This document shows, in pieces, positions 1 to 13,534 of a stretch of DNA of 25,239 bases. The notes beneath the pieces were generated by a model. That model was not told where the DNA came from. It ran no database searches and was given only the letters and a program-made list of their open reading frames with translations. The position numbers and the translations under genes were made by a program. The stretch spans positions 1 through 25,239 of the forward strand of contig CAZBPC010000047.1 of NCBI GenBank assembly GCA_964493715.1, written 5' to 3'. Source of the stretch: an uncultured archaeon. Lineage in GTDB: Archaea > Asgardarchaeota > Lokiarchaeia > Sigyniarchaeales > SOKP01. How positions within the stretch are numbered: the first letter of the stretch is position 1; every line of letters begins with the position of its first letter.

Positions 1-631
1 CTTCATCGATAGATTTGCGACATTTTGGACAATGAATTTTTCCCGCGATTGATGATATGGTGGTTTCAGATTTGTCGCTATAAGTTATTTCTTCTGTTTT
101 TACATCTTTTACTCCTTTAGGTTTTTTAACTATGATTATTATAGGAATAATTACTATTGTAGAAAAAACCAAAATTAATGGAATCATCCCTAAACCGTAG
201 ACTATTTCAAAGTTTTTATTGTATGAAAATGCTCCCGTGGTATTTAAAGAGAACTGATATATACCCGGTAAGGTATTTATAAGAGAAAATAATTGTAAAT
301 AAAAGATCTGAGATATATTATTACCAGTTAATGATAATGAACGATTTCCAACACTAAAAAATTGCGGTCCTGCGGTTTCACTAAAAATGCATTGAATTTG
401 TCCTGTTTGATTTGCACTTATATTTAATTTAAGTTCAAGATTGAACCAAACCAATGAAGGAAGGTAAGTATCTATAGTGAAATTTTGAGCTCCTTGTGAT
501 ATTTGAATTTTTGATTGATCTTCTTGGGGTATATGATGACTTGAGTTTGCTATGAGTTTTAAAGGTGAGATAGAAATTGACGTGAGTATTAGTAATGTGA
601 GAATAGACAAATTTCGTGCAGTATGAGCCAT
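1..631 (-). CDS. Partial (3' end outside the window) single-pass membrane protein: signal peptide, extracellular domain, TM helix and cytoplasmic zinc-ribbon
   Basis: Not in the ORF track; translated by hand. ATG at 631-629 and open to the window edge: MAHTARNLSILTLLILTSISISP... N-x-S/T sequons (NFT, NIS, NQT, NRS, NTT), TM segment GMIPLILVFSTIVIIPIIIIV followed by KKPK, and ending ...KIHCPKCRKSIDE (CxxC). Confidence 0.8.
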   Translation of the reverse strand, partial: MAHTARNLSILTLLILTSISISPLKLIANSSHHIPQEDQSKIQISQGAQNFTIDTYLPSLVWFNLELKLNISANQTGQIQCIFSETAGPQFFSVGNRSLSLTGNNISQIFYLQLFSLINTLPGIYQFSLNTTGAFSYNKNFEIVYGLGMIPLILVFSTIVIIPIIIIVKKPKGVKDVKTEEITYSDKSETTISSIAGKIHCPKCRKSIDE

Positions 632-1702: not shown

Positions 1703-3205
1703 ATGGAAGAATTAATAAAATCTTCAATTTTCAATGGAGTAGTATTTGCAGTCTATGATAAGTTAGGTCCTCAACCCGTTTACATGTTTCCTCCCCCATT
1801 TAGGAGAAAATCTCAAGATGAGGGAAAACTAGAAAAACAAAAAGATTTGCTTGAATTGACGATGAGAGATTATACTCATATTTCTATTAAGAATCTCTCT
1901 CTATTAATAGGCGATGGATCTATTCTTGAGAAACCAGAAATAACGGAATTTAAACATTTTGGTATCATTCCATTTCCCGATTTTCATTCCACTTCTTTAA
2001 CTTTTTTCCACTTCGTTAAAATAGGACAAGCTGAACAACCAGCAGCAACAGCATTTTCTTTATTTATTGATGAAGATCGTAGAAGCTTTCTATATAACAA
2101 TATGGATCGCTTGAAAAATTCAATTATAGAATTTTTTCAGAAATTCGATAAAGAACTATTAGAGCAAGTAAAACCTCAAGAAGAAATAGAACACCATTTT
2201 AGATCTTTTTTAAAACAAGTTATGGATATAGAACAAGCACCATCCACATCATTTTCAGCACAAAGAAAATTGAAAATTATATTTACTGGCTTAGATAATA
2301 CTGGTAAGACATCGTTTCTACTTTCTATTGATAGAAAATATTCGAAATTAATTGGTGTAAAGCCTACTCTAGGTGCCAAAGTTCGCTCTATCGAAGCTCT
2401 TGGAGCCTCAATATTTCTTTGGGATTTAGGTGGTCAAGTTAGTCTTAGGCAAAAGTACCTTAATAAAGCTAACATTTATCTTTACGAAGCAGATTTAATA
2501 TTTTACTTTATAGATGTAAAAGATAAAAAAAGATTTGGAGAGAGTATTGAATATCTTGAGAATATTCAAAAAGTCTTACTTACTTTTGATCAAAAAACTC
2601 CTATCATGTATGTTTTATCAAAATCTGATCCAGATGTAATGCAATTACCCAAGATCAAGGAGAATATCGTGGAAATAACTCAAAATTTAGTTAATGTTTC
2701 ACATGGCGAACAGCCTGAAATATTTTTTACCAGTATTTTTGACTCTTTTTCAATCTTAAGAGCCTTTTCCTCAGGAATTTCTAAACTCAGCCCCAACCGT
2801 AAATTAATTGAACATAATTTGAGTAATTTCTCAAAAGAAACAAAAATTTATTTAGCATTATTGATGAGCAACGATGGTTTGATCATGGCAGAATTTTTTA
2901 CATCTAAAGCAATAAAAATCACTGCAATATCAAAACCAGAAGAATTATTAAATGTTTTTCAACTCACTGCCCCACAATTCGCGATCTTATATAAAATATT
3001 TTCTAAATATAGAACCGTTCCTCAAGATGAAACTATTTTTAAAGTCGCTAATTCAGTAATTCTCTTTAAAAAGGTAAATGTGAATCAATTTGGAATGTTT
3101 TTACTTCTATTAATGGATGATGAATCCAAAAAAGAAACTATAAACCTTAAATTACCAAATTTCCTCAAGATTACTGAAGATTTGTTGTTAACGTATATTT
3201 CTTAG
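1703..3205 (+). CDS. Multidomain small GTPase: N-terminal longin/uDENN-like domain, Rag/Arf-like GTPase, C-terminal roadblock-like domain
   Basis: G1 GLDNTGKTS (from aa 196), G2 PTLG, G3 WDLGGQ, G4 SKSD, and a Rag-type G5 region FTSIFDSFSILRAFS. The C-terminus has a roadblock-like LALLMSNDGLIMAE strand pattern. The N-terminal ~180 aa are homologous to those of 11225..12280. Confidence 0.85.
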   Translation: MEELIKSSIFNGVVFAVYDKLGPQPVYMFPPPFRRKSQDEGKLEKQKDLLELTMRDYTHISIKNLSLLIGDGSILEKPEITEFKHFGIIPFPDFHSTSLTFFHFVKIGQAEQPAATAFSLFIDEDRRSFLYNNMDRLKNSIIEFFQKFDKELLEQVKPQEEIEHHFRSFLKQVMDIEQAPSTSFSAQRKLKIIFTGLDNTGKTSFLLSIDRKYSKLIGVKPTLGAKVRSIEALGASIFLWDLGGQVSLRQKYLNKANIYLYEADLIFYFIDVKDKKRFGESIEYLENIQKVLLTFDQKTPIMYVLSKSDPDVMQLPKIKENIVEITQNLVNVSHGEQPEIFFTSIFDSFSILRAFSSGISKLSPNRKLIEHNLSNFSKETKIYLALLMSNDGLIMAEFFTSKAIKITAISKPEELLNVFQLTAPQFAILYKIFSKYRTVPQDETIFKVANSVILFKKVNVNQFGMFLLLLMDDESKKETINLKLPNFLKITEDLLLTYIS

Positions 3206-5348: not shown

Positions 5349-5786
5349 TTGCTTTTAATAACAAGCATATTTTTCTTTATTAGTGATTACTGGATATTGC
5401 TTGTTGGAATCTTTATATGGGGTACAGGAAAAGGAGGATTTTGGGTCATAATGTCCCCTATATTAGCAAATACTATCGATGAGTCAATTGTAGATACAAA
5501 GCAGAGAAAAGAAGGAATTTATAATGGAGTTAAAACATTTATAAGTCGTGCTGCATTGGTTATTCAAGCTGTGAGTTTTTCAACTATTCATCTCTTGACC
5601 GGATTTGATCAAAGCCCAGATGCTACATCGCAAACTCCACTTGCCAACCTTGGTATTCAAATACACTTCGCGTTAATTCCAGCGATATCAATATTTGCTG
5701 GAGCATTCGTGTTCTGGAGGTATTATAAATTAACACCAGATAAAGTTGATCGGAATCGAGAGATTATTATCGAACAACAGCTATAA
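5349..5786 (+). pseudogene. 5'-truncated remnant of a GPH/MelB-type MFS transporter (last ~4 TM helices)
   Basis: ANTIDESIVDTKQRKEGIYNG and YYKLT motifs match the C-terminal part of glycoside-pentoside-hexuronide symporters. Only 145 aa with a TTG start, and no room upstream for the rest (the divergent gene starts at 5226). Confidence 0.75.
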
Positions 5787-10434: not shown

Positions 10435-10710
10435 CTAATCTTTAATCTTTTCTAATATTGACATAATCCGGTAAATCGTTGTTCTAGAATGAAAAGGAAT
10501 ATTCGCATCCATGGTAAGGTCATCTACTAAGTAAATAACATTTGCGGCAAGAATAGCATCAGTGGCATCCTCATCTTCGCGTGAAAGTTCATCAATACCT
10601 TTTTGGGCAACTCGTTTAATATTTCTCGGTACTGCACGGTCTTGAATCATTGCCTCTAATAAAATTTTAACTTGTTCAAAAGCTTCTTTGGCTTCATCAT
10701 GGGTAGGCAC
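10435..10710 (-). CDS. UPF0147 family protein
   Basis: DRAVPRNIKRVA and DANIPFHSRTTIY match this archaeal family. GTG start preceded by AGGTG. Confidence 0.88.
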   Translation of the reverse strand: MPTHDEAKEAFEQVKILLEAMIQDRAVPRNIKRVAQKGIDELSREDEDATDAILAANVIYLVDDLTMDANIPFHSRTTIYRIMSILEKIKD

Positions 10711-10893
10711 TTCTAAAACACCTAATAATGTATAAGAAGAATTTATTTCACAGTAGTAAATTTTTCTTCAATTTTATATTTTTTGAAGAGACAAGTATAT
10801 TTAATATTGGTTAATTTTATTAATTGCGAGAGTTAAGTATTTTTACTATTACTTAATTTTATTAGTTGCGATTTTAAATTGCATCAATTCGGT

Positions 10894-10967
10894 GGGAAAG
10901 TAGTCTAGATTGGTATGATTCTAGGTTCGGAACCTAGAGGTCGGGGGTTCAAATCCCCTCTTTCCCA
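10894..10967 (+). tRNA. tRNA-Pro (anticodon CGG), intronless, CCA not encoded
   Basis: Cloverleaf: acceptor GGGAAAG/CTTTCCC, D-arm GTCT-AGATTGGTA-TGAT, anticodon arm CTAGG-TTCGGAA-CCTAG, variable loop AGGTC, T-arm GGGGG-TTCAAAT-CCCCT, discriminator A. Confidence 0.95.
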
Positions 10968-11049
10968 TCTATTTCTCAAAACTATGAATTATTTGAAGAT
11001 TAGATCTCTTAGTCTTATTTTGATTTTAAAGGTAGAGATATACAAATTT

Positions 11050-11082
11050 TCGTGAAAGCAGAGTTTCACGATCTTTTTTTTT
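11050..11082 (+). terminator. Hairpin plus T-tract downstream of tRNA-Pro (terminator or palindromic protein-binding site)
   Basis: TCGTGAAA-GCAGAG-TTTCACGA perfect 8-bp inverted repeat (11050-11071), followed by T9 (11074-11082). Confidence 0.55.
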
Positions 11083-11224
11083 AGCCAAAAACTATGACTA
11101 AATCATCTTTAAAATGCTCCTTTTTGAAATGCCTATATATAAAAACCCATAATATATCAATATTATAACTTAATGTTTCAACATTCCAATTATCTAATAA
11201 CATATAATATAGATTTAATCAGCA

Positions 11225-12280
11225 ATGAGCGGCGAGTTAATTCATGCAATTGTTTATACTGAGTTCAATGATGCAATCGGTCCAAATCCATTATTCTATC
11301 TTCCAAAAGAATTGCCAGAAAACATTCGAATGCTTGTTGGAATAAAAACGATCACTATCTTATCAGGAGATCATGGATTTATTCCAGATTCGCTCATAAT
11401 CATACCCTTTCCATCAATTAAATTAAAAGGAATCATTAAATATATAGAAAGGCACGATTACACTAGAAGAGGAAACGTCGCGCAGTCTGCTATAACTTTT
11501 TTATTTAAAGAAATCGATGATATTATATTTTACAAATACATAGATTATCTCGATGCCCCTTTTAACGAAACGGCAAGAATTATTGGAGAATTGCAGTCTC
11601 AAAACGCTCCCCATGAAAGGATTTCAGAAGAATTAAAATACTTACGAGATAATATCTGTACGATGCTTATACAACTTAGAGCTAAAGAAAACATGCAATC
11701 TTTTACAAAACCGTTCCCAGAGATATCAACACAAGAGGACAAAGTTATTGAATATAAAATTAAATTAGCCATTTGTGGAGATCCAGGGGTGGGAAAAACA
11801 AGCACCATACTTAGATTTACGGATAATGCGTTCAGCAGAAGATATTTGCCAACGATGGGCGTTTCCATTAGTGATAAATTATTTAGAGTTAAACAAAATG
11901 TGGTAGAGCTGATTTTATGGGATGTGGCTGGTCAAACTAAATTTCAAAAAATGCGCAGGCACTTCTACCAAGGAAGTGAAGCGATCGTATTAGTTTTTGA
12001 CCTTACCAATCCCAAAAGTTTTGATAGTATTCGGGAATGGCATACCGATATCCGAAAAAATCTTTCACGTGAAAATGATATGATTGGGTATATTTTTGGA
12101 AATAAATGTGACATGATAAAAGAACGAAAAATTAGCAAAGAAGATGCTAAAGAACTCGCAAGGGATTTAAATTTATTCTATACAGAGATATCAGCCCTTA
12201 CAGGTGAAAATGTAGAGTTCTCTTTTTACCAGATTGCGGAAGCTGTTTTAGAATCTAAAGTTGAGCCAATGTATAATTAA
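11225..12280 (+). CDS. Longin/uDENN-like domain fused to a Rab-like small GTPase
   Basis: C-terminal G domain: GDPGVGKTS, PTMG, WDVAGQ, HFYQG, GNKCD, EISA. The N-terminus AIVYTEFNDAIGPNPLFYLP has the F-x(4)-GP pattern of uDENN/longin domains. Confidence 0.9.
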   Translation: MSGELIHAIVYTEFNDAIGPNPLFYLPKELPENIRMLVGIKTITILSGDHGFIPDSLIIIPFPSIKLKGIIKYIERHDYTRRGNVAQSAITFLFKEIDDIIFYKYIDYLDAPFNETARIIGELQSQNAPHERISEELKYLRDNICTMLIQLRAKENMQSFTKPFPEISTQEDKVIEYKIKLAICGDPGVGKTSTILRFTDNAFSRRYLPTMGVSISDKLFRVKQNVVELILWDVAGQTKFQKMRRHFYQGSEAIVLVFDLTNPKSFDSIREWHTDIRKNLSRENDMIGYIFGNKCDMIKERKISKEDAKELARDLNLFYTEISALTGENVEFSFYQIAEAVLESKVEPMYN

Positions 12281-12976: not shown

Positions 12977-13534
12977 TTAATAGATGTTATCTAATTTTTT
13001 ATATTTATGGTATAGGTTATTTATAATTACTTGAAAGGCTTTAATGATACCCTCACCTGTTAAAGCAGACGTCATAAAATGTCCTAAAAAATCGTTGCTT
13101 CGAGTCAATTTTGAAATTTTTGATTCCTCAAGAATATTCTTATCAACTAAATCCACTTTATTACCCAAAAGGATGATTGGAATCTTTCCACAGAATTTTT
13201 TAATATCATTATGCCAATTAGAAATATGTTTAAAACTGTTTTTTCCTAGTTGGTTATTCTCTAGAGAATATACAATAATGGCAGCCATACTTTCTTTATA
13301 AAATGAGGGACGTAGAAAAAAAAATTCATCTTGTCCTGCAATATCCCATAAAGAAAGTGTACAAGTATCTCCCTCAATATTTTGATTATATTTAGAAAAT
13401 TGGGCACCGATGGTTCGAATATAATCAGTTTGAAAACTTTCGTGAGTAAATTTCTTAATTAATGATGTTTTACCAACCATTCCATCTCCAATTACCGTTA
13501 TTTTAAAATGAAATTCTTCTTTCGTGCTTGACAT
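12977..13534 (-). CDS. Stand-alone Rab-like small GTPase
   Basis: GDGMVGKTS, TIG, WDIAGQ, LRPSFY, GNKVD and TSA; no C-terminal prenylation cysteines. Confidence 0.93.
   Translation of the reverse strand: MSSTKEEFHFKITVIGDGMVGKTSLIKKFTHESFQTDYIRTIGAQFSKYNQNIEGDTCTLSLWDIAGQDEFFFLRPSFYKESMAAIIVYSLENNQLGKNSFKHISNWHNDIKKFCGKIPIILLGNKVDLVDKNILEESKISKLTRSNDFLGHFMTSALTGEGIIKAFQVIINNLYHKYKKLDNIY

What the first reader, a model, noticed from the sequence alone, without database searches (positions are those of the whole stretch)
11426..11506. Candidate arginine finger in the longin-like domain of the Rab fusion, absent from its paralogue
Seen: KGIIKYIERHDYTRRGNVAQSAITFLF places R81-R82-G83 in a loop between two predicted beta-strands. 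The equivalent loop in 1703..3205 (FVKIGQAEQPAATAF) has no Arg. Known (recalled): the catalytic Arg of longin GAPs sits in the beta4-beta5 loop (FLCN DSLARG R164, SMCR8 DLEARG R147, NPRL2 KYSRN R78), while the partner subunits are non-catalytic. Inference: a catalytic/non-catalytic asymmetry like that of FLCN-FNIP or GATOR1, with R82 (11468-11470) acting on the Rag-like GTPase, its own Rab domain or the neighbouring Rab.
Basis: partly seen in the sequence, partly recalled or inferred. Interest (0 to 1): 0.8.

Follow-up and report, generated by a model that had tools for sequence, protein, structure and literature searches.

The report
Candidate arginine finger, longin-Rab fusion
An Asgard archaeal gene joins a Rab-like molecular switch to a folliculin-type longin domain that keeps the conserved arginine eukaryotes use to turn such switches off, a plausible but untested built-in off-switch of a kind already described for these archaea.

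Summary
The 27-residue string is aa 68-94 of a 351-aa protein (11225..12280 +). R81-R82-G83 sit in the loop between strands 67-77 and 85-95 of a confidently modelled longin domain (pLDDT 92.9). The paralogue at 1703..3205 has no Arg there.

- **Conservation:** R82 is conserved in 118 of 120 close homologues and 107 of 129 distant ones. It is one of only five columns of the domain at 90% or more, together with G19-P20, the published "GP motif" of GAP-type longins.
- **Fold:** below an Asgard longin, the next 17 entries are all FLCN-FNIP, GATOR1/SEA or C9orf72-SMCR8 chains (Z 10.1-14.3). Other longins score 9.5 or less.
- **Sequence link:** the Arg-bearing Rag-type paralogues match Pfam Folliculin across this loop (20 of 21). 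The flagged protein itself does not.

Catalysis and substrate are untested. Docking of its own Rab domain on a longin dimer got only weak support (0.52, best control 0.02).

The proposed pairing with 1703..3205 is not supported. That protein's family lacks the Arg-Gly in 102 of 102 members, and its likelier partner is an Arg-bearing gene of the same architecture about 10 kb away.

Fusion and motif were each published separately, and this scan has noted the same thing in other genomes. I rate it a new member of a known kind.

The parts
11225..12280 (+). Whole gene: 351-aa longin + Rab-like GTPase fusion (P0001)
   Evidence: ORF list and translation. Pfam Ras E 2.5e-46 on aa 180-342, nothing on aa 1-175. 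153 homologues of the N-domain; those listed are almost all about 350 aa with a Ras-family domain.
11225..11698 (+). Longin domain, aa 1-158: strands 8-15 and 19-26, helix 32-48, strands 58-62, 67-77 and 85-95, helices 96-125 and 130-158
   Evidence: AlphaFold2 models. VIA-align Z 18.5 to the Lokiarchaeal longin 8yqg_B and Z 10.1-14.3 to chains of FLCN-FNIP, GATOR1/SEA and C9orf72-SMCR8 entries.
11279..11284 (+). G19-P20, the 'GP motif' at the start of strand 2 (preceded by F14-N15; family consensus F-D-x-x-x-G-P)
   Evidence: Invariant in 120 of 120 close homologues. G in 113 and P in 111 of 129 distant rows. Position as described for GAP longins in PMC12290439.
11426..11506 (+). The flagged stretch: strand 4, loop, strand 5 (aa 68-94)
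11456..11473 (+). D78-x-x-x-R82-G83 loop motif (DYTRRG)
   Evidence: D78 in 99 of 135, R82 in 107 of 129 and G83 in 97 of 123 non-gap rows. Profile-profile alignment puts D78/R82/G83 on D87/R91/G92 of the Rag-type paralogues.
11468..11470 (+). R82 codon (AGA): candidate arginine finger
   Evidence: Arg in 118 of 120, 107 of 129 and 90 of 99 rows. One of five columns at 90% or more.
11699..11749 (+). Flexible linker, aa 159-175
   Evidence: pLDDT under 50 for aa 159-173 in the full-length model.
11750..12277 (+). Rab/Ras-like G domain, aa 176-351: P-loop GDPGVGKT (11777-11800), switch II WDVAGQ (11918-11935), NKCD (12101-12112), SAL (12191-12199); no C-terminal Cys
   Evidence: Pfam Ras. Best solved relatives by sequence are Rab8A, Rab10 and Rab1 at E about 1e-48. 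Motif positions; C-terminus ...KVEPMYN.
1703..3205 (+). Paralogue P0002: longin (no Arg) + Rag/Arf-like G domain + C-terminal part, 500 aa
   Evidence: Pfam Gtr1_RagA E 1.2e-19 on aa 191-405 and Arf E 4.1e-18. The N-domain matches the family profile at E 7e-13. 102 family members of about 500 aa.
1766..1771 (+). G22-P23 of P0002: GP motif kept
   Evidence: Invariant in the alignment of its family; position.
2012..2056 (+). FVKIGQAEQPAATAF, aa 104-118 of P0002: the equivalent strand 4-loop-strand 5 region without Arg
   Evidence: 0 of 102 family members have Arg-Gly here; 13 of 102 have some Arg at scattered positions in aa 105-114.
12977..13534 (-).
   Evidence: Pfam Ras E 8e-42; motifs. No link to R82 was tested.

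Best explanation
The N-terminal 158 residues of the protein at 11225..12280 form a folliculin/NPRL2/SMCR8-type ('GAP-type') longin domain. R82, in the beta4-beta5 loop next to the G19-P20 motif, is its arginine finger. Proposed mechanism: the longin domain pairs with a second longin domain, either another copy or an Arg-less paralogue. The pair forms a platform on which a Ras-superfamily G domain sits, and R82 reaches into the nucleotide pocket to speed GTP hydrolysis together with the GTPase's own switch II glutamine. The likeliest client is the Rab-like domain fused to it, probably that of the partner chain. This would make the protein a switch with a built-in off-timer.

Shown: fold, loop position, conservation, and kinship to the GAP longins.
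Inferred: dimerisation, catalysis, and the identity of the client.
For: **Fold**
- Longin topology with RRG in the beta4-beta5 loop, modelled at pLDDT 92.9.
- Below the Lokiarchaeal longin 8yqg (Z 18.5), ranks 2-18 of the second-look list are all chains of Lst4, FLCN-FNIP2, C9orf72-SMCR8 or GATOR1/SEA entries (Z 10.1-14.3, 130-153 residues aligned). TRAPP, BLOC-3, DENND1, Ykt6 and AP sigma longins follow at Z 9.5 or less.
- The search of 48,161 representative chains gives the same order.

**Conservation**
- R82 is Arg in 118 of 120, 107 of 129 and 90 of 99 rows.
- Only G19, P20, P27, R82 and Y103 reach 90% in the 99-row set.

**Published criteria (passages read)**
- SMCR8 R147 lies in the longin betaL4-betaL5 loop and corresponds to FLCN R164; R147A abolishes GAP activity (10.1101/2020.04.16.045708; 10.1101/2020.04.15.042515).
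- Avl9-type DENN GAPs carry the finger between beta4 and beta5 of the longin (10.64898/2026.01.05.697756).
- The GP motif at the start of beta2 neighbours the finger in FLCN, NPRL2, SMCR8 and C9orf72. It is absent from FNIP2, NPRL3 and non-GAP longins, and is shared with Asgard folliculin-type longins (PMC12290439).

**Sequence link**
- 20 of 21 N-domains of the Arg-bearing Rag-type paralogues match Pfam PF11704 Folliculin (best E 5.5e-6).
- In this genome's copy, residues 79-133, which include A-R-G, match profile positions 49-101 (E 2.8e-4, 21.2 bits, cut-off 23.3).
- hhalign joins that set to the P0001-type set at probability 99.9%, with R82 on their invariant Arg.

**Loss pattern**
- Of 112 rows with residues at all three columns, 87 have GP and R82, 11 have neither, 7 have GP only and 7 have R only.

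**Client**
- The fused G domain keeps the switch II Gln that an Arg-finger GAP would need.
- Predicted complex of two N-domains + Rab domain (aa 176-351) + GTP + Mg: weak support, score 0.52, best of 3 controls 0.02.
- In the tool's calibration, 58 of 80 solved complexes and 2 of 110 mismatched pairs reached the mark. At 0.60 or under, only 7 of those 80 did, and so did both mismatches that passed.
- The runs agree in at least 86% of contacts, and the partner's pLDDT is at least 82. No contacts were given. Longin-GTPase complexes have been solved, so the pass may reflect likeness rather than binding.
Against: - No Asgard longin has been shown to have GAP activity in any paper my searches found.
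- P0001's own N-domain matches no Pfam family, even at E up to 10. The link to Folliculin is only transitive.
- Fold similarity does not separate catalytic from non-catalytic subunits. The best eukaryotic match is the Lst4 longin, which I recall as the FNIP homologue. The nearest structure of all, 8yqg, has no Arg at this column.
- No residue-level superposition could be made.
- The full-length monomer model gives no confident docking of the two domains (pTM 0.52).
- The complex score is in the band the tool calls 'more often wrong than right unless the guess was likely beforehand'.
- The GP/Arg co-loss does not survive a control for relatedness. On a 97-row tree, only 2 independent pairs lie on supported branches, and the sign test gives p = 1.
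- The whole strand 4-loop-strand 5 segment is well conserved in close relatives, so R82 stands out only in the distant set.
Confidence: 0.5

Rival explanations
1. The longin domain is a non-catalytic platform (an exchange factor, an effector-like dock or an autoinhibitory lid) for a small GTPase. R82 is a conserved binding contact, for example to a switch region or a phosphate, not a transition-state finger.
For: Most longin and roadblock platforms act as exchange factors or scaffolds (introduction of PMC10933270). TRAPP, Mon1-Ccz1, BLOC-3 and DENND1 longins also match the model at Z 8.6-9.7. The weak support for Rab docking (0.52 against 0.02) fits any kind of docking.
Against: The GP motif plus a beta4-beta5 Arg is reported only in the GAP class and not in TRAPP, adaptin or DENND-type longins. 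GAP-class chains outrank the exchange-factor longins.
Confidence: 0.2
2. R82 is structural. Together with D78 and G83 it fixes the tight beta4-beta5 turn, as a salt bridge plus a glycine turn, and has no direct role at a nucleotide.
For: D78, R82 and G83 are conserved together as D-x-x-x-R-G. The loop is modelled with high confidence as an ordered turn (pLDDT 94-95 for aa 71-90).
Against: Whole families fold without it: the 102-member family of 1703..3205 has none, and neither does the solved 8yqg longin. So the fold does not need it. Among distant longin-Rab relatives its loss often goes with loss of the surface GP motif (11 rows lack both), which fits a shared surface function better than a local turn.
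Confidence: 0.12
3. R82 is a true finger but acts in a heterodimer on a different client. The Arg-bearing longin-Rab pairs with an Arg-less paralogue (the longin-Rab on contig C60 4995..6032, or 1703..3205). It then fires that partner's G domain or a free Rab such as 12977..13534.
For: All solved longin GAPs are heterodimers with one catalytic subunit. This genome holds Arg-bearing and Arg-less versions of both architectures.
Against: No pairing was tested. 1703..3205 has a closer candidate partner of its own architecture. The best match of 12977..13534 in the collinear stretch of congener G103 was the Rab domain of another longin-Rab gene, not a gene at the corresponding place.
Confidence: 0.12

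Closest known systems
Eukaryotic longin-domain GAP subunits: FLCN (FLCN-FNIP2, RagC/D), NPRL2 (GATOR1, RagA/B), SMCR8 (C9orf72-SMCR8, Arf and possibly Rab)
   Same: Longin fold. A conserved Arg in the beta4-beta5 loop. A GP motif at the start of beta2. They are the top eukaryotic structural matches (Z 10.1-14.3).
   Different: No DENN or NPRL2-type C-terminal domain; a Rab-like GTPase is fused there instead. There is no direct Pfam Folliculin match. The partner subunit is unknown, and activity is untested.
Asgard 'Folliculin/SMCR8-type longin' proteins with GP motif and arginine finger (PMC12290439, Traffic 2025; sections read)
   Same: The same two motifs in the same structural places, in Asgard archaea. 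The paper proposes the same hypothesis, that they may share GAP activity and act on Asgard Arf-related or Rag GTPases.
   Different: The paper's set is one reference Heimdallarchaeial protein plus 14 others with published models. Its sequence list is in a supplement I could not open, so I cannot say whether longin-Rab fusions were among them. The passages I read name no client GTPase fused in cis.
Asgard longin-GTPase fusions (L-G and L-G-R architectures; PMC10933270 Fig. 1f and 'Asgard small GTPases' section; Liu et al. preprint 10.1101/2020.10.19.343400)
   Same: The same architecture: 26 of 74 small GTPases of strain MK-D1 carry a roadblock or longin domain. The preprint notes Rag-family GTPases fused to longin domains and NPRL2-like longins.
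   Different: The passages I read do not discuss an arginine finger or GP motif in these fusions, or Arg-bearing against Arg-less paralogues.
PDB 8yqg, dimeric longin domain of a Lokiarchaeal Roadblock-Longin protein
   Same: The nearest solved structure (Z 18.5, rmsd 2.2 over 145 residues). It is the only PDB sequence hit (E 1.4e-6). It has the GP motif and crystallised as a dimer.
   Different: It has no Arg at the R82 column (Pro or Glu there). It is fused to a roadblock domain, not to a GTPase.
Avl9-type monomeric DENN GAPs (preprint 10.64898/2026.01.05.697756, passages read)
   Same: The arginine finger lies between beta4 and beta5 of the longin subdomain, within a conserved surface patch.
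   Different: Those act as monomers and use a cDENN subdomain to hold the switch regions. Here there is no DENN domain.

Membership tests
Longin-domain GAP subunits (FLCN / NPRL2 / SMCR8 class) | Longin fold (strand-strand-helix-strand-strand-strand-helix-helix) | tested here: met
   DSSP of two AlphaFold2 models; Z 18.5 to the 8yqg longin and Z 10-14 to longin-GAP chains.
Longin-domain GAP subunits (FLCN / NPRL2 / SMCR8 class) | Conserved arginine in the beta4-beta5 loop of the longin domain | tested here: met
   R82 lies between strands 67-77 and 85-95. It is Arg in 118 of 120, 107 of 129 and 90 of 99 rows.
Longin-domain GAP subunits (FLCN / NPRL2 / SMCR8 class) | GP motif at the end of the beta1-beta2 loop or start of beta2 | tested here: met
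   G19-P20 lie at the start of strand 19-26. They are present in 120 of 120 rows and in 113 and 111 of 129 rows.
Longin-domain GAP subunits (FLCN / NPRL2 / SMCR8 class) | The arginine superposes residue for residue on FLCN R164, NPRL2 R78 or SMCR8 R147 | not testable with these tools
   The fold tools give ranges only. GATOR1 chains align model 2-5..160 to chain 3-6..168, which is compatible but is no residue-level test. Profile searches of PDB sequences reached only 8yqg.
Longin-domain GAP subunits (FLCN / NPRL2 / SMCR8 class) | Sequence match to a family model (Pfam PF11704 Folliculin, NPR2, C9orf72-like) | tested here: inconclusive
   P0001's N-domain matches no family at E up to 10. Of the 26 rows of the P0001-centred set, 4 hit Folliculin (best E 0.0056) and 1 hits C9orf72-like. 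Of the Rag-type Arg-bearing paralogues, 20 of 21 hit Folliculin (best E 5.5e-6); hhalign links them to P0001 at 99.9%. An Atlas neighbour cluster has NPR2 on 19% of its members (score 0.89, a lead only).
Longin-domain GAP subunits (FLCN / NPRL2 / SMCR8 class) | Works as a dimer of two longin domains, one catalytic | not tested
   8yqg is dimeric by its title. My complex job held two copies, but only the Rab partner was scored.
Longin-domain GAP subunits (FLCN / NPRL2 / SMCR8 class) | C-terminal DENN (FLCN, SMCR8) or NPRL2-specific domain | tested here: not met
   The C-terminal half is a Ras-family G domain. Yeast Lst7 is said to be longin-only, so this feature is not universal.
Longin-domain GAP subunits (FLCN / NPRL2 / SMCR8 class) | GAP activity that is lost when the arginine is mutated | not testable with these tools
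   Needs biochemistry.
Asgard longin-GTPase (L-G) fusion proteins | N-terminal longin and C-terminal small GTPase in one reading frame, in an Asgard genome | tested here: met
   Homologues are labelled Promethearchaeota, Lokiarchaeota, Hodarchaeota or Helarchaeota by their sources. The family was found in 20 of 20 genomes of the window's family and 1 of 2 of the sister family. With this single-sequence query it was not found in the other 98 genomes sampled from the phylum.
Rab family GTPases | G1-G5 motifs and best similarity to Rabs | tested here: met
   Pfam Ras E 2.5e-46. Rab8A, Rab10 and Rab1 are the top PDB sequence hits. GDPGVGKT, WDVAGQ, NKCD and SAL are present.
Rab family GTPases | C-terminal cysteine(s) for prenylation | tested here: not met
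   The protein ends ...ESKVEPMYN without Cys. A preprint finds no Asgard sequences specifically sister to eukaryotic Rabs. 'Rab-like' is the safer name.

The most novel reading that the evidence does not exclude
The longin-GTPase fusions of this lineage are self-contained switch-plus-GAP modules that fire in trans on dimerisation. An Arg-bearing chain inserts R82, or its equivalent R91 in the Rag-type protein, into the G domain of its partner chain. Arg-less paralogues make asymmetric dimers in which only one G domain can be switched off. Those paralogues are 1703..3205 for the Rag-like pair and the C60 gene for the Rab-like set. On this reading, the eukaryotic arrangement of a RagA/RagC-type heterodimer plus separate FLCN-FNIP or GATOR1 longin GAPs would descend by gene fission from such one-chain archaeal modules.
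Probability: 0.18. Interest if true: 0.7.

Novelty: new member of a known kind. Interest (0 to 1): 0.4.

Why it matters
If R82 is catalytic, this protein would give a simple, soluble, single-gene test object for two questions. Do Asgard folliculin-type longins already work as GTPase-activating proteins? And on which GTPases do they act? The fusion itself names a candidate client. That bears on how the Rag/GATOR1/folliculin and C9orf72-SMCR8 regulators of eukaryotes arose. The idea, however, is already in print for Asgard longins in general, the fused architecture is catalogued, and the scan has met it in other genomes. So this locus adds a further, well-characterised example rather than a new concept.

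Tried and rejected
1. **Direct sequence route to FLCN, NPRL2 or SMCR8 in the PDB.** A profile of 26 N-domains (A5) found only 8yqg (E 1.4e-6) and coiled-coil noise. A profile with some full-length Rag-type rows (A6) was swamped by Rag and Arf G domains. An N-only Rag-type profile (A7) again found only 8yqg (E 0.02). No residue-by-residue alignment to a solved finger was obtained.

2. **Third homologue search.** I ran it with the N-only profile hoping for stand-alone longins with source names. The 120 rows listed were almost all the same longin-Rab family; no source name mentioned folliculin or a longin.

3. **Phylogeny-controlled test of joint GP/Arg loss.** The tree is poorly resolved: 13 of 94 inner branches are starred. 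There are 14 Arg-less rows and 9 changes on the best tree, but supported branches force only 2. Independent pairs gave p = 1. The raw Fisher test (p 1.2e-6) is therefore not evidence on its own.

5. **R81 as a second finger.** Rejected, because the column is R or K in close relatives and variable beyond them.

6. **Operon context.** P0001 follows a tRNA-Pro and about 250 nt of spacer. Its neighbours are PEP-utilising, nitroreductase and DUF998 genes. I saw no functional cluster.

7. **Notes of this scan near the locus.** None were found.
Full report
**What is there.** The window (31% G+C) comes from a Loki-type Asgard archaeon; its homologues are labelled Promethearchaeota or Lokiarchaeota by their sources. 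ORF 11225..12280 (+) encodes 351 aa. Pfam sees a Ras-family G domain at aa 180-342 (E 2.5e-46) and nothing in aa 1-175. The flagged string is aa 68-94 at exactly nt 11426-11506, with R81, R82 and G83 at 11465-11473. ORF 1703..3205 (+) encodes 500 aa with a Gtr1/RagA- and Arf-like G domain at aa 191-405. Its string FVKIGQAEQPAATAF (aa 104-118) has no Arg.

**Conservation.**
- The N-domain has 153 homologues in the 90%-clustered collection. The 120 listed are almost all about 350 aa with a Ras-family domain.
- In their alignment R82 is Arg in 118 of 120, G83 is invariant, R81 is R in 76 and K in 39, and G19-P20 are invariant.
- A full HMMER scan of 1.84 billion representatives found 138 relatives at E up to 0.001.
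- Aligned with the two window proteins (140 rows), R82 is Arg in 107 of 129 non-gap rows, G83 in 97 of 123, D78 in 99 of 135, G19 in 113 of 129 and P20 in 111 of 129.
- I then hand-picked 99 rows that cover most of the domain: 11 close and 87 distant homologues plus the query, leaving fragments out. In that set the only columns at 90% or more are G19, P20, P27, R82 and Y103.
- So R82, not R81, is the conserved residue, and it is among the best-kept positions of the domain.

**Fold.**
- The full-length model (pLDDT 82.3, pTM 0.52) and the N-domain model (pLDDT 92.9, pTM 0.87) agree. They give strands 8-15 and 19-26, helix 32-48, strands 58-62, 67-77 and 85-95, and helices 96-125 and 130-158.
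- That is the longin topology. RRG lies in the beta4-beta5 loop and GP at the start of beta2. The linker 159-173 is disordered.
- Foldseek's best matches are the Lokiarchaeal longin 8yqg and GATOR1/SEA chains, followed by Lst4, FLCN-FNIP2 and C9orf72-SMCR8 entries.
- VIA-align against 48,161 representative chains gives 8yqg_B at Z 18.5, then seven chains of longin-GAP entries at Z 11.3-13.6, then other longins at 9.7 or less.
- In the second look at Foldseek's 992 aligned chains, ranks 2-18 are all from such entries (Z 10.1-14.3) and rank 19 onwards are TRAPP, BLOC-3, DENND1, Ykt6 and so on at 9.5 or less.
- The tools name entries, not subunits. Catalytic and non-catalytic subunits score alike, so the fold places the domain in the class but says nothing about catalysis.

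**Sequence link to folliculin.**
- P0001's N-domain matches no Pfam family even at E up to 10.
- The Arg-bearing Rag-type paralogues do. Of 21 N-domains, 20 hit PF11704 Folliculin, best E 5.5e-6. The 21 are this genome's C69 copy, 17 taken from related genomes and 3 database fragments.
- In the C69 copy, residues 79-133 match profile positions 49-101 at 21.2 bits, just under the 23.3 cut-off. That stretch covers strand 4, the A-R-G loop, strand 5 and the next helix.
- hhalign joins this set to the P0001-centred set at 99.9% probability (E 5.6e-36) and puts D78, R82 and G83 on their D87, R91 and G92.
- The language-model Atlas lists a neighbour cluster with Pfam NPR2 on 19% of its members at score 0.89, which is a lead only.

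**Literature (what I read).**
- In PMC12290439 I read the passages on Asgard and the arginine finger and all of section 2.4. The GP motif sits at the end of the loop before beta2 or the start of beta2 and neighbours the arginine finger. It occurs in FLCN, NPRL2, SMCR8 and C9orf72 but not in FNIP2, NPRL3 or non-GAP longins. Asgard 'Folliculin/SMCR8 longin' proteins share both motifs 'in the same structural arrangement', and the authors suggest these may be GAPs for Asgard Arf-related or Rag GTPases.
- Passages of 10.1101/2020.04.16.045708 place SMCR8 R147 in the betaL4-betaL5 loop, equate it with FLCN R164, and show that the SMCR8 longin alone is inactive.
- Passages of 10.1101/2020.04.15.042515 show R147A kills Arf GAP activity.
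- Passages of 10.64898/2026.01.05.697756 define DENN GAPs by an arginine finger between beta4 and beta5 of the longin.
- Longin-GTPase fusions are catalogued in PMC10933270 (passages and the section 'Asgard small GTPases') and in 10.1101/2020.10.19.343400 (passages).
- Three full-text searches turned up no paper that reports GAP activity of an Asgard longin or discusses the finger in longin-Rab fusions. A fourth, for the paper behind 8yqg, found none that holds the term 'Roadblock-Longin'. Supplements were closed, so the sequence list of PMC12290439 may already include such fusions.

**The paralogue and the genome's set.**
- The N-domain of 1703..3205 has 102 family members including itself, nearly all of about 500 aa. 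None has Arg-Gly in the loop, and 13 of 102 have an Arg somewhere in aa 105-114 at scattered positions. G22-P23 are invariant. The loss is therefore old and fixed.
- On a 97-row tree it nests, at SH-aLRT 99, in a clade with 7 Arg-bearing rows, the full-length ones among them being of the long Rag-type architecture.
- A profile of the N-domain, run against 4326 ORFs of the window's genome, finds six proteins:
  - P0001 (RRG, GP);
  - C1 64781..65818 (345 aa; RRG, GP);
  - C69 8961..10373 (470 aa, Rag-type; ARG, GP);
  - C60 4995..6032 (345 aa; neither motif);
  - 1703..3205 (GP only; E 7e-13);
  - a weak hit (E 0.0023) in a 298-aa protein on C12.
- The window is collinear, in reverse, with contig C95 of congener G103, and contig C69 continues that collinearity past the window's left end. 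The Arg-bearing Rag-type gene therefore probably lies about 10 kb upstream of 1703..3205 and is divergently transcribed.
- I found both types in 17 other genomes. In 13 of them they lie on one contig, 5.6-19.6 kb apart and divergent. These genomes are kin, so shared gene order may be simple inheritance.
- Even so, by architecture, descent and position, 1703..3205 has a better candidate partner than P0001.

**Loss pattern.** Among 112 rows with residues at G19, P20 and R82, 87 have both motifs, 11 have neither, 7 have GP only and 7 have Arg only. Several of the 'GP only' rows are short fragments. The raw association (Fisher p 1.2e-6) is not corrected for relatedness. The tree test could not confirm it, with only 2 supported independent pairs and p = 1.

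**Client GTPase.**
- The fused G domain keeps GDPGVGKT, WDVAGQ, NKCD and SAL. The switch II Gln is kept in 55 of the 60 Arg-bearing rows in which a G domain was found, and in 10 of 10 Arg-less rows.
- A predicted complex of two N-domains, the Rab domain (aa 176-351), GTP and Mg got 'weak support': score 0.52, best of 3 controls 0.02.
- In the tool's calibration, 58 of 80 solved complexes and 2 of 110 mismatched pairs reached the mark. At 0.60 or under, only 7 of those 80 did, and so did both mismatches that passed.
- The runs agree in at least 86% of contacts, and the partner's pLDDT is at least 82. No contacts were given.
- Solved longin-GTPase complexes exist, so the pass may be likeness rather than binding.
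- The monomer model shows no confident docking.

**Reading.**
- Most likely (about 0.5), R82 is the arginine finger of a folliculin-type GAP longin that acts from a longin dimer on a Ras-superfamily G domain. The fused Rab-like domain is the first candidate client.
- The rivals are a non-catalytic docking residue (0.2), a purely structural turn residue (0.12), and a true finger working in a heterodimer on another client (0.12).

**Novelty.** The fused architecture and the motif were published separately. Notes of this scan describe the same reading in other genomes: longin-Rab fusions (e1-5460733, e1-5590607, e1-5506294, e1-4409417) and Rag-like neighbour pairs with and without the Arg (e1-5589839). 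Those are unchecked AI notes. I reached the Rag-pair reading before I saw them. One note pointed me to the Liu et al. preprint, which I then read. Verdict: a real, well-supported candidate, a new member of a known kind, of moderate interest.

Noticed in passing
Own genome contig C69 8961..10373 (+), locus L004:1483-2895; window 1703..3205: A 470-aa longin + Rag-like + C-terminal protein has an invariant A-R-G (R91) and a GP motif. It probably lies about 10 kb upstream of the Arg-less 1703..3205, across a contig break, and is divergently transcribed. The same divergent pair sits 5.6-19.6 kb apart on one contig in 13 of 17 related genomes where both were found. It looks like a Rag-type heterodimer with one finger.
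   Followed up: partly
Own genome contig C60 4995..6032 (-), locus L003: A 345-aa longin-Rab paralogue has lost both the GP motif (NIPKF) and the Arg-Gly (KTSEQE) but keeps a normal-looking G domain. It is a candidate non-catalytic partner for the Arg-bearing longin-Rabs.
   Followed up: partly
Own genome contig C12 5697..6593 (-): A 298-aa protein whose C-terminal half weakly matches the longin profile (E 0.0023; GP present, loop reads DDERFGEK). Its N-terminal part looks to me like a response-regulator receiver. I did not scan it against Pfam.
   Followed up: no
window 11777..11800: The P-loop reads GDPGVGKT. The Pro is invariant in 120 of 120 close homologues. It is present in 48 of 68 Arg-bearing distant relatives with a G domain, against 3 of 10 Arg-less ones. 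By my recall this is the position of Ras Gly12, where side chains interfere with RasGAP's finger. What it means here is unexplained.
   Followed up: no
window 11264..11284: The family consensus F14-D15-x-x-x-G19-P20 has the same spacing as C9orf72's W33-D34 ... G38-P39, which PMC12290439 calls essential. P0001 itself has N at position 15. The archaeal domain may combine features that eukaryotes split between two subunits.
   Followed up: partly
window 10893..10969 (+): A tRNA-Pro (CGG) gene lies about 250 nt upstream of the longin-Rab gene. A conserved 91-aa ORF lies at 10435..10710 (-).
   Followed up: no
L005 (G103:C95, about 10800..11869, minus strand) versus window 10711..11224: The congener G103 has an extra longin-Rab gene (358-aa frame, 45% identical N-domain) between the 91-aa ORF and the P0001 orthologue. 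This genome has none at that place, although a similar paralogue sits on contig C1.
   Followed up: partly
window 5349..5786 (+): A 145-aa ORF matches only the last third (positions 302-425 of 427) of the MFS_2 sugar-transporter model. It may be a truncated gene or a missed upstream start.
   Followed up: no
window 1703..3205 and its homologues: Source labels put homologues of 1703..3205 in Thor-, Odin-, Heimdall-, Hod- and Hermodarchaeota bins. In contrast, a search of 121 sampled genomes of the phylum found it in only two families of one order (19 of 20 and 2 of 2; none of the other 98 at E 1e-10). Either the bin labels are loose or the query is too weak for distant lineages.
   Followed up: no
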